Shown: positions 14,093-15,064 of the stretch, piece by piece
How positions within the stretch are numbered: position 1 is the first letter of the stretch
Layout of the letters: every line of letters begins with the position of its first letter
Assembly (NCBI GenBank): GCA_000165345.1
Contig: CM000433.1
Span: forward strand, 416,001 to 480,000
Reading direction: 5' to 3'
Length of the DNA: 64,000 nt
The notes under the pieces: model-generated
Seen by the model: the letters and a program-made list of their open reading frames with translations, nothing else
The model's database searches: none
Told to the model about the DNA's origin: nothing
Program-made: the position numbers and the translations under genes

Positions 14093-15064
14093 TTACAGGA
14101 TCCAAAATAATTGAAGTAACCCTTTGATATAGCCAAATATTTCATTTTTTCCTAATTTAGAATCTCCATAAAGTCTATCTACAAAAACTATCGGTACATC
14201 AGCAATTGAATACCCAAATTTCGTAGCTCTAGCAATAATTTCCATTTGAAAGACATATCCTTTACTAACCATATTGCTACCTAGTATTGATTTGAATACG
14301 TCTCTTTTGTAAAGTCTAAAAGACCCAGTTAGATCACTAGCTCTTGGTTGAAGTAAGAAGTTAGCTACATTGGCAGGGACGAATATAAATTGAATTATTT
14401 TATTATTTTCTCTAAATCTTCAACTTACCAAGGAAATTGGCTACTCTACTGACTAAAATTCTATCCCACGTCCACCCAGAGACTCCACCATTTCTTATGT
14501 ACCTTGATCCTGAAACAATATCAAAATCTTTAGTTTCTTGTTTTTCAATAAAATCTGCGATATATTTTGGGTGATGGGATAGGTCGCAGTCCATTAGTAT
14601 AATAAAGTCACCTTCAGAATGTTCAAAACCTTTCATATATGCAGTGCCTAGTGACGGTTAATATATATTTATTTGTTTTGTTAAGGTTACTTACCTAGTC
14701 CCAATTTTCCCTTTCTCTTAACAAGTTTCTGAGAAAAAATGTTGCGTGTTTGTAAATGCAATCGAATTTTTCTTTAACTTACAATATTAACTTCAGGATA
14801 ACATTTTTGGAGCTTTTCCACTACCTCTGCTGTGCCGTCAGGGCTAGAATCATCAACAATAATAATCTCCCAGTTTACAGGCCTTTAAAGTTTTTTTTCC
14901 AATTGAAAATATTTTTTTTTAAATTAGTTTTATAGCTTTCGCGTTTAATTAGCTACTTACAATTTACTAAATGTTTCATGGAGAAGCTCAACCATTATAC
15001 CAACATTTTCTCTTTCATTATATGTTGGAATAATAACACTGTACATTGGGCTCACTTTCAACAT
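14093..15064 (-). CDS. DPM1: Dolichol-phosphate mannosyltransferase catalytic subunit, 5 exons
   Basis: Model: complement(join(14093..14364,14429..14647,14695..14728,14783..14882,14961..15064)), 242 aa. Colinear with human DPM1: [85 protein letters not shown] and [11 protein letters not shown]. All four introns (78, 54, 47, 64 nt) start with GTAAGT and end in AG, and the phases are consistent. The stop codon is at 14093-14095. Confidence 0.85.

What the first reader, a model, noticed from the sequence alone, without database searches (positions are those of the whole stretch)
14093..15064. Fully resolved 5-exon DPM1 (dolichol-phosphate mannose synthase) in an otherwise intron-poor region
Four very short introns (78, 54, 47, 64 nt; all GTAAGT...AG) interrupt a 242-aa DPM1 that is colinear with the human enzyme from the [13 protein letters not shown] start to the C-terminal GDSKLG. 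One exon is only 34 nt. The track shows just one 74-aa fragment. Neighbouring genes of 2-6 kb have no introns, so intron density is very uneven here. DPM1 supplies Dol-P-Man for GPI anchors and for the mucin-type glycoproteins encoded nearby, and the mucin-like gene sits 3 kb downstream. The protein ends without a C-terminal TM helix. It is therefore the human-type soluble catalytic subunit, which would need DPM2/DPM3 partners, rather than the yeast-type membrane-anchored enzyme.
Basis: partly seen in the sequence, partly recalled or inferred. Interest (0 to 1): 0.55.

Follow-up and report, generated by a model that had tools for sequence, protein, structure and literature searches.

The report
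Known five-exon Cryptosporidium DPM1 gene

Summary
On the minus strand of 14093..15064, five exons (104/100/34/219/272 nt) and four GTAAGT..AG introns (78/54/47/64 nt) splice in frame to 242 aa. That protein is residue-for-residue XP_001388271.1/EAZ51293.1, 'dolichol phosphate mannose synthase [Cryptosporidium parvum Iowa II]'. This is gene cgd5_2040, and PMC9713705 describes it as having four introns, 242 aa and 0 TM domains.

I added comparative support:
- The same four intron positions and phases occur in four other Cryptosporidium species and in Toxoplasma gondii.
- Introns 1-3, including the 34-nt micro-exon, also occur in a hemichordate, so they are retained ancient introns.

The protein is a GT2/GT-A enzyme. 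Its best structural match is archaeal DPMS (TM 0.81). It keeps the DXD motif and all invariant DPM1 residues, and it has no TM helix, so it belongs to the human-type class.

Two parts of the interpretation fail or stay open. Mucin-type O-glycans do not use Dol-P-Man; the documented uses in C. parvum are GPI anchors and Trp C-mannosylation. Dependence on DPM2/DPM3 could not be tested here.

Verdict: real, correctly resolved, already known; low interest.

The parts
14961..15064 (-). Exon 1 (104 nt). ATG at 15064-15062. Encodes [34 protein letters not shown](L), that is strand beta1 and the PTYNE nucleotide-sugar motif.
14883..14960 (-). Intron 1, 78 nt, GTAAGT..AAAG, phase 2. The position is shared with other Cryptosporidium species, T. 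gondii, Saccoglossus and Neocallimastix.
14783..14882 (-). Exon 2 (100 nt). The length is identical in Cryptosporidium, T. gondii, Saccoglossus and Neocallimastix.
14729..14782 (-). Intron 2, 54 nt, GTAAGT..TCAG, phase 0. The position is shared with T. gondii, Saccoglossus and Neocallimastix.
14695..14728 (-). Exon 3, a 34-nt micro-exon. The same 34-nt exon occurs in T. gondii and Saccoglossus.
14648..14694 (-). Intron 3, 47 nt, GTAAGT..CTAG, phase 1. The position is shared with T. gondii and Saccoglossus.
14429..14647 (-). Exon 4 (219 nt). Encodes the DXD motif (D99-C-D101).
14365..14428 (-). Intron 4, 64 nt, GTAAGT..GTAG, phase 1. The position is shared with other Cryptosporidium species and T. 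gondii only.
14093..14364 (-). Exon 5 (272 nt including the TAA stop at 14095-14093). Ends with the predicted C-terminal helix (residues 225-241, ..[17 protein letters not shown]). No TM segment.
15065..15532 (.). Divergent intergenic region shared with the FHA-domain gene (15533..17845, plus strand). It holds a block at about 15286..15372 that is conserved across Cryptosporidium species and includes an E2F-like TTCCCGCC at 15310..15317. It is the presumed promoter; function not shown.

Best explanation
This is the already annotated Cryptosporidium parvum chromosome-5 gene cgd5_2040 (CPATCC_002211), which encodes DPM1, the catalytic polypeptide of dolichol-phosphate mannose synthase (EC 2.4.1.83).

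Shown here: the pre-mRNA must lose four short GT-AG spliceosomal introns to give a 242-aa protein. That protein is a GT2/GT-A fold enzyme with an intact DXD metal/nucleotide-sugar site.

Inferred from family membership: on the cytosolic face of the ER it transfers mannose from GDP-mannose to dolichyl phosphate. The Dol-P-Man is then flipped and used in the lumen. The literature gives two uses in C. parvum: the three mannoses of the GPI anchor, and tryptophan C-mannosylation of TSR adhesins.

The protein lacks a membrane anchor, so it belongs to the TM-less, 'human-type' class. It presumably reaches the membrane through a partner or through its conserved C-terminal helix. That step is inferred, not shown.

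The four introns are ancestral introns that survived the massive intron loss in the Cryptosporidium lineage. They are not new insertions.
For: Identity and splicing:
- The spliced product is identical to XP_001388271.1/EAZ51293.1, 'dolichol phosphate mannose synthase [C. parvum Iowa II]'.
- The window differs at 1 of 20,972 nt from C. parvum CP029784.1, and the deposited gene span is the same 972 nt.
- PMC9713705 names cgd5_2040 as DPM1 with four introns, 242 aa and 0 TMD.
- PMC8744675 states that the introns of the IOWA-ATCC annotation are 100% RNA-seq supported. PMC9713705 says that annotation has the same four introns.

Comparative evidence for the introns:
- Positions and phases (2,0,1,1) are identical in C. 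andersoni and C. xiaoi as deposited, and in C. felis and C. ubiquitum after re-splicing one site each.
- Internal exon lengths are invariant (100/34/219/272), while intron lengths vary by amounts that are not multiples of 3.
- Exons are more conserved than introns, for example 84-97% against 58-69% versus C. ubiquitum.
- The same four positions occur among the 10 introns of T. gondii. Introns 1-3 occur in Saccoglossus and introns 1-2 in Neocallimastix.

Family and fold:
- Pfam PF00535, E=1.4e-39.
- Best PDB sequence hit is Pyrococcus DPMS 5mlz, E=5e-34.
- The named best homologues across eukaryotes are annotated DPM1, at 56-62% identity outside Cryptosporidium.
- All 56 invariant columns of a 35-sequence eukaryote alignment are kept, including P13/Y15/E17 and D99/D101.
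- The AlphaFold model has pLDDT 90.4, and its best fold match is 5mlz with TMq 0.81.

No TM helix.

Uses of Dol-P-Man: GPI anchors, and C-mannosylated TSP proteins plus dpy-19 cgd4_2180 in C. parvum.
Against: - No transcript data were examined here directly. RNA-seq support comes from combining statements in two papers.
- Enzyme activity of the Cryptosporidium protein has not been measured, as far as I found.
- The IOWA-ATCC annotation starts the protein at M24 (219 aa). This contradicts the 242-aa start but not the splice sites.
- How the TM-less protein is held at the ER membrane is unknown for this organism.
Confidence: 0.96

Rival explanations
1. The gene has the same splicing, but translation starts at the internal ATG (M24). 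This gives the 219-aa product of the IOWA-ATCC annotation (CPATCC_002211, QOY41636.1).
For: A deposited model has this start. That annotation was evidence-based, so a downstream transcription start site is conceivable.
Against: A 219-aa protein would lack strand beta1 (residues 7-14) and the invariant P13/Y15/E17 of the PTYNE motif. All other Cryptosporidium species, T. gondii, animals and fungi start upstream of this motif. M1 is the first ATG of the open frame.
Confidence: 0.06
2. It is a different polyisoprenyl-phosphate glycosyltransferase of the same fold, for example the Dol-P-glucose synthase ALG5 or an ArnC/GtrB-like enzyme, and not the mannose synthase.
For: GT2 polyprenyl-phosphate transferases share the fold. 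ArnC and GtrB are the next-best structural matches, with TMq 0.73-0.79.
Against: Identity to named eukaryotic DPM1 is 56-62% over the full length, against 22-25% to ArnC/GtrB. The best PDB hit by sequence and by fold is DPMS itself. Every bacterial or archaeal NCBIfam equivalog scores far below its cut-off.
Confidence: 0.02
3. It is a yeast/trypanosome-type autonomous DPM synthase, anchored by its own C-terminal TM helix.
For: None beyond shared catalytic homology.
Against: The protein ends 17 residues after GDSKLG. The highest 19-residue hydropathy is 1.09 and the C-terminal window is 0.66, both below the 1.6 TM threshold. The stop codon is conserved in position in all Cryptosporidium species, T. 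gondii and animals. The literature table lists 0 TMD.
Confidence: 0.01

Closest known systems
Human/animal DPM1 (catalytic subunit of the DPM1-DPM2-DPM3 complex)
   Same: It shares 59-62% identity and is colinear from the [13 protein letters not shown] start to the C-terminal helix. It has the DXD motif, lacks a TM helix, and has a similar length of about 240-260 aa. Three intron positions, including the 34-nt exon, are shared with a hemichordate orthologue.
   Different: Partner subunits DPM2/DPM3 have not been identified for Cryptosporidium in anything I could search. The downstream uses are narrower: there are no Dol-P-Man-dependent N-glycan mannoses according to PMC9713705.
Toxoplasma gondii DPM1 (TGME49 dolichol-phosphate-mannose synthase family protein)
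   Same: It shares 59% identity. The first three exon lengths are identical (104/100/34 nt). All four C. parvum intron positions and phases are present. The T. gondii gene has a very negative fitness score of -4.3.
   Different: T. gondii has 10 introns of 164-664 nt spread over 5.5 kb. C. parvum keeps 4 introns of 47-78 nt in under 1 kb.
Pyrococcus furiosus DPMS (PDB 5mlz/5mm0/5mm1)
   Same: It has the same GT-A catalytic fold (TMq 0.81, rmsd 2.6 A, 33% identity) and an aligned DAD/DCD metal site.
   Different: The archaeal enzyme carries its own C-terminal TM domain; chain length is 374 aa against 242 aa.
Saccharomyces/Trypanosoma-type Dpm1
   Same: It performs the same reaction and has the same GT2 catalytic domain.
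   Different: [quoted passage not shown] The tail is absent here.
Plasmodium falciparum DPM1 ('novel clade', Shams-Eldin et al. 2008)
   Same: It is an apicomplexan DPM1 without a C-terminal TM tail. It is cited as distinct from the yeast class.
   Different: I could not read that paper, and I did not compare the sequences directly. Whether the Cryptosporidium enzyme shares its complementation behaviour is unknown.

Membership tests
Glycosyltransferase family 2 (Pfam PF00535, GT-A fold) | Full-length match to the family profile above the curated cut-off | tested here: met
   136.1 bits against a cut-off of 23.3; residues 9-179 match profile positions 1-167 of 168.
Glycosyltransferase family 2 (Pfam PF00535, GT-A fold) | GT-A fold with a DXD motif | tested here: met
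   The model has pLDDT 90.4 with alternating beta/alpha elements. The top fold matches are GT-A polyprenyl-phosphate transferases. D99-C-D101 are invariant columns.
Eukaryotic DPM1 (Dol-P-Man synthase catalytic subunit, EC 2.4.1.83) | Closest homologues across eukaryotes are DPM1 orthologues, with full-length colinearity | tested here: met
   In the top 120 hits, the entries that carry a functional name are annotated DPM1 or dolichol-phosphate mannosyltransferase, at 56-62% identity outside the genus and 96-100% coverage. The exact sequence is deposited under that name.
Eukaryotic DPM1 (Dol-P-Man synthase catalytic subunit, EC 2.4.1.83) | Conserved catalytic and substrate-binding residues | tested here: met
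   All 56 invariant and 37 near-invariant columns of a 35-sequence alignment are listed against residues of the C. parvum sequence. The alignment to 5mlz covers the PTYNE and DxD regions.
Eukaryotic DPM1 (Dol-P-Man synthase catalytic subunit, EC 2.4.1.83) | GDP-Man:Dol-P mannosyltransferase activity | not testable with these tools
   This needs an enzyme assay or genetic complementation.
Human-type (TM-less, multi-subunit) class of DPM synthase | No C-terminal transmembrane helix | tested here: met
   The maximum KD-19 value is 1.09 and the C-terminal 19 residues score 0.66. The literature table lists 0 TMD.
Human-type (TM-less, multi-subunit) class of DPM synthase | DPM3 (tether) and DPM2 partner genes present in the genome | not testable with these tools
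   Only 64 kb of the roughly 9-Mb genome is available. No eukaryotic genome collection can be scanned. Literature searches found nothing for Cryptosporidium.
Yeast-type (autonomous, C-terminal TM) class of DPM synthase | C-terminal hydrophobic membrane anchor | tested here: not met
   the stop-codon position is conserved with animals and T. gondii.
Spliceosomal (U2-type GT-AG) introns | GT..AG boundaries whose removal restores a single conserved reading frame | tested here: met
   every intron has an in-frame stop if retained.
Spliceosomal (U2-type GT-AG) introns | Position and phase conserved in orthologues, while intron sequence and length drift | tested here: met
Spliceosomal (U2-type GT-AG) introns | Junction-spanning transcript reads | not tested
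   The only support is from the literature: the IOWA-ATCC introns are 100% RNA-seq supported, and that annotation has the same four introns.

The most novel reading that the evidence does not exclude
Cryptosporidium, like the 'novel clade' reported for P. falciparum DPM1, may lack recognisable DPM2/DPM3. In that case its TM-less DPM1 would be held at the ER by a different means, either its conserved amphipathic C-terminal helix or an unrecognised lineage-specific tether. That would make the complex a parasite-specific target. A weaker side reading is that the four ancient introns, including the 34-nt micro-exon, are retained under selection, for example for expression, rather than by chance in a genome that lost about 90% of its introns.
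Probability: 0.15. Interest if true: 0.4.

Novelty: already known. Interest (0 to 1): 0.08.

Why it matters
Dol-P-Man synthase is the single entry point for the mannose in GPI anchors, which carry major Cryptosporidium surface antigens. It also feeds the C-mannosylation of TSR adhesins. The Toxoplasma orthologue has a strongly negative fitness score, so the enzyme is a plausible drug target.

None of this is new. The gene model, protein length, intron count and lack of a TM domain are in GenBank and in a 2022 pathway paper. This re-analysis adds four minor points:
- The four introns are ancient, conserved positions shared with Toxoplasma. Three are shared with an animal.
- The longer 242-aa start is the biologically sensible one.
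- The deposited C. felis and C. ubiquitum models appear mis-spliced.
- The proposed link to neighbouring mucin-like genes has no biochemical basis.

Tried and rejected
1. A fifth, 5'-UTR intron. A GTAAGT at 15252-15247 (minus strand) is followed by a pyrimidine tract and TAG. It is not conserved even in C. ubiquitum (ATTAGA), so I treat it as chance.

2. Transcript-level evidence from public assemblies. The only extra Cryptosporidium-like contig, L010 (Logan), is genomic and merely reads through intron 4 in frame. It gives no splice evidence.

3. DPM2/DPM3 partners. Literature searches gave nothing for Cryptosporidium or other apicomplexans. The two key papers, Shams-Eldin 2008 and Delorenzi 2002, are not held. 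I ran no further search on human DPM3/DPM2 for three reasons. The word-seeded search cannot reach such short, divergent proteins. Only the best 120-150 hits are listed. I would have had to supply the query from memory.

4. Rfam scan of the whole window: no RNA family hit.

5. Bacterial or archaeal equivalog naming (NCBIfam): all hits are far below their cut-offs and uninformative.

6. A functional link to the neighbouring 'mucin-like' gene, whether through O-glycans or a GPI anchor: rejected.

Full report
**Observation**

The feature is on the minus strand.
- Exons: 15064-14961, 14882-14783, 14728-14695, 14647-14429, 14364-14093.
- Introns: 78, 54, 47 and 64 nt.

The pieces join into a 729-nt open frame of 242 codons plus TAA. 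Each intron begins GTAAGT and ends AG. Every number in the finding is therefore correct.

Chance is excluded for four reasons:
- The product is a perfect match to a deposited protein.
- It matches Pfam GT2 over the whole profile, E=1.4e-39.
- Each intron would introduce an in-frame stop if retained.
- Four of only 18 minus-strand GTAAGT hexamers in the 64-kb window sit at the exon ends of this 972-nt gene. My hand Poisson estimate from those counts is about 1e-4.

**What it is**

The exact 242-aa sequence is XP_001388271.1/EAZ51293.1, 'dolichol phosphate mannose synthase [Cryptosporidium parvum Iowa II]'. The C. hominis, C. meleagridis and C. tyzzeri orthologues fall in the same 90% cluster. 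The window differs at 1 of 20,972 bases from C. parvum chromosome record CP029784.1, where the annotated gene spans the same 972 nt.

PMC9713705 names the gene cgd5_2040 (DPM1). It lists the gene as 242 aa, with no signal peptide and 0 TM domains. It states that both the Iowa-II and the IOWA-ATCC (CPATCC_002211) annotations contain the same four introns, and that they differ only in the start codon, giving 242 against 219 aa. PMC8744675 says the introns of the IOWA-ATCC annotation are 100% supported by RNA-seq. The finding is thus a correct rediscovery of a published gene model.

**Independent support for the splice sites**

I mapped the deposited proteins back onto their genomic loci. In C. 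andersoni and C. xiaoi the four introns sit at the same codon positions and phases (2, 0, 1, 1). The internal exon lengths are exactly 100, 34, 219 and 272 nt. Intron lengths wander between species: 46-78, 52-63, 47-68 and 48-75 nt. Exons are clearly more conserved than introns, for example 84-97% against 58-69% versus C. ubiquitum.

The deposited C. felis (234 aa) and C. ubiquitum (229 aa) models deviate at one site each and delete conserved residues. In both cases a canonical alternative site restores the colinear 241/242-aa protein. For C. felis this is a GTGAGT donor 21 nt downstream. For C. ubiquitum it is an AAG acceptor 39 nt upstream. Those two public models therefore look mis-spliced.

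**The introns are old**

T. gondii DPM1 has 10 introns. Its first three exons are 104, 100 and 34 nt, exactly as in C. parvum. All four C. parvum intron positions are among the ten.

The hemichordate Saccoglossus shares introns 1-3, including the 34-nt micro-exon. The fungus Neocallimastix shares introns 1 and 2. Intron 4 is shared only with T. gondii.

So Cryptosporidium retained four ancestral introns and lost six. The loss had happened before the gastric and intestinal species split. Intron loss and shortening in this genus is a known trend.

In C. parvum about 10.8% of genes have introns. Intron-containing genes have 2-10 exons, with a mean of 2.6, and the mean intron length is 99 nt. A 5-exon gene is in the upper tail but is not exceptional. 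Intron GC is 25% against 34% for the exons here, which matches the genome-wide 22% against 32%.

**Protein and mechanism**

- The best solved relative by sequence is Pyrococcus furiosus DPMS, 5mlz, E=5e-34.
- An AlphaFold model built on a 35-sequence alignment is confident, with pLDDT 90.4 and pTM 0.88.
- The model's best fold match is again 5mlz (TMq 0.81, rmsd 2.6 A). The polyprenyl-phosphate transferases ArnC and GtrB follow.
- All 56 invariant columns of the eukaryote-wide alignment are kept, including P13/Y15/E17 of the PTYNE motif and D99/D101 of the DXD motif.

From family membership I infer the standard reaction: GDP-Man + Dol-P gives Dol-P-Man + GDP on the cytosolic face of the ER. 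Activity itself was not tested and, as far as I found, is unpublished for Cryptosporidium.

**Class and partners**

No 19-residue window reaches TM-like hydropathy; the maximum is 1.09 and the C-terminal window is 0.66. The protein stops at the same alignment column as the animal and T. gondii enzymes. Residues 225-241 form a conserved C-terminal helix..[17 protein letters not shown] against consensus ..EIxxYLKGLLxLFxT.

The literature separates a yeast/trypanosome class with a C-terminal tail from a TM-less class that uses DPM2/DPM3 in humans. Identity between the classes is about 31%, taking T. cruzi against human. At 59-62% identity to animal DPM1, the Cryptosporidium enzyme is clearly in the TM-less class.

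Whether it needs DPM2/DPM3 is not established. PMC9713705 lists no such subunits. I found no paper on apicomplexan DPM2/DPM3. P. falciparum DPM1 is cited as a separate 'novel clade', but I could not read that paper.

**The mucin link**

The gene 3 kb away (18072..19925, minus strand, 617 aa) encodes a protein with a signal-peptide-like N-terminus and no Pfam domain. It has a single 60-aa tract that is 65% S/T/P, and an acidic C-terminus.

Mucin-type O-glycans in Cryptosporidium are made by pp-GalNAc transferases from UDP-GalNAc, not from Dol-P-Man. PMC9713705 argues that Dol-P-Man serves only GPI synthesis in this parasite. PMC10034466 shows experimentally that C. parvum TSP adhesins carry C-mannosyl-tryptophan, and it names a dpy-19 gene, cgd4_2180. 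DPY19 enzymes use Dol-P-Man, so there are two sinks, and neither is the mucin domains. Gene adjacency here has no demonstrated functional meaning. The same gene order (FHA - DPM1 - PITH - CAP - AAA - RIO1) is simply syntenic across the genus.

**Start codon**

The 219-aa model would remove strand beta1 and the invariant PTYNE residues. All orthologues start upstream of that motif. I therefore favour the 242-aa product. Only TSS or N-terminal data can settle this.

**Verdict**

It is wrong on the mucin connection and untested on DPM2/DPM3. The feature is already known, so interest is low.

Noticed in passing
window 3572..6695 (minus strand); intron 4342..4387: The M60-like peptidase gene has one 46-nt GTAAGT..TTTTAG intron. 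The spliced CDS gives 1025 aa plus a stop, which equals the deposited length. The region is therefore intron-poor, not intron-free.
   Followed up: yes
window 14077..14095: The stop codons of the PITH-domain gene (plus strand, TGA at 14077-14079) and of DPM1 (minus strand, TAA at 14095-14093) are convergent and only 13 nt apart. Their 3' UTRs must overlap.
   Followed up: no
window about 15286..15372 (intergenic, between DPM1 and the FHA gene): This block is conserved in C. parvum, C. ubiquitum, C. felis and C. xiaoi, and partly in C. andersoni. It contains TGCATGTA, ATGGGGA and an E2F-like TTCCCGCC at 15310..15317. It is probably a shared divergent promoter.
   Followed up: partly
L006 3001..3974 (C. 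felis) and L007 3001..3951 (C. ubiquitum): The deposited DPM1 models (234 and 229 aa) delete conserved residues. An alternative canonical donor in C. felis (GTGAGT, 21 nt downstream) and an alternative acceptor in C. ubiquitum (AAG, 39 nt upstream) restore colinear 241/242-aa proteins. Both public models are likely mis-annotated.
   Followed up: yes
window 14412..14636 (minus strand): The original C. hominis TU502 annotation (XP_668195.1) consists only of the C. hominis counterpart of this 74-aa exon-4 ORF; that early model missed all four introns.
   Followed up: yes
window 51230..56062 (minus strand) and 51519..54941 (plus strand): A 1610-aa ORF is 25% Ala, 22% Pro and 15% Lys, with PAKKDAP-like low-complexity repeats and no Pfam match. 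It is mirrored by a 1140-aa antisense ORF, which is presumably a compositional artefact.
   Followed up: partly
L010 279..884 (Logan SRR31861040 contig, an unidentified Cryptosporidium-like organism): In this relative, intron 4 of DPM1 has no in-frame stop, so a prokaryote-style gene call reads straight through it (…ANFLGKLSETDGRASERSKLIPHKHSLSATSANFLL…).
   Followed up: partly
window 15247..15252 (minus strand): A GTAAGT followed by a pyrimidine tract and TAG lies 185 nt upstream of the DPM1 ATG and looks like a 5'-UTR intron. It is not conserved in C. ubiquitum, so I treat it as chance.
   Followed up: yes
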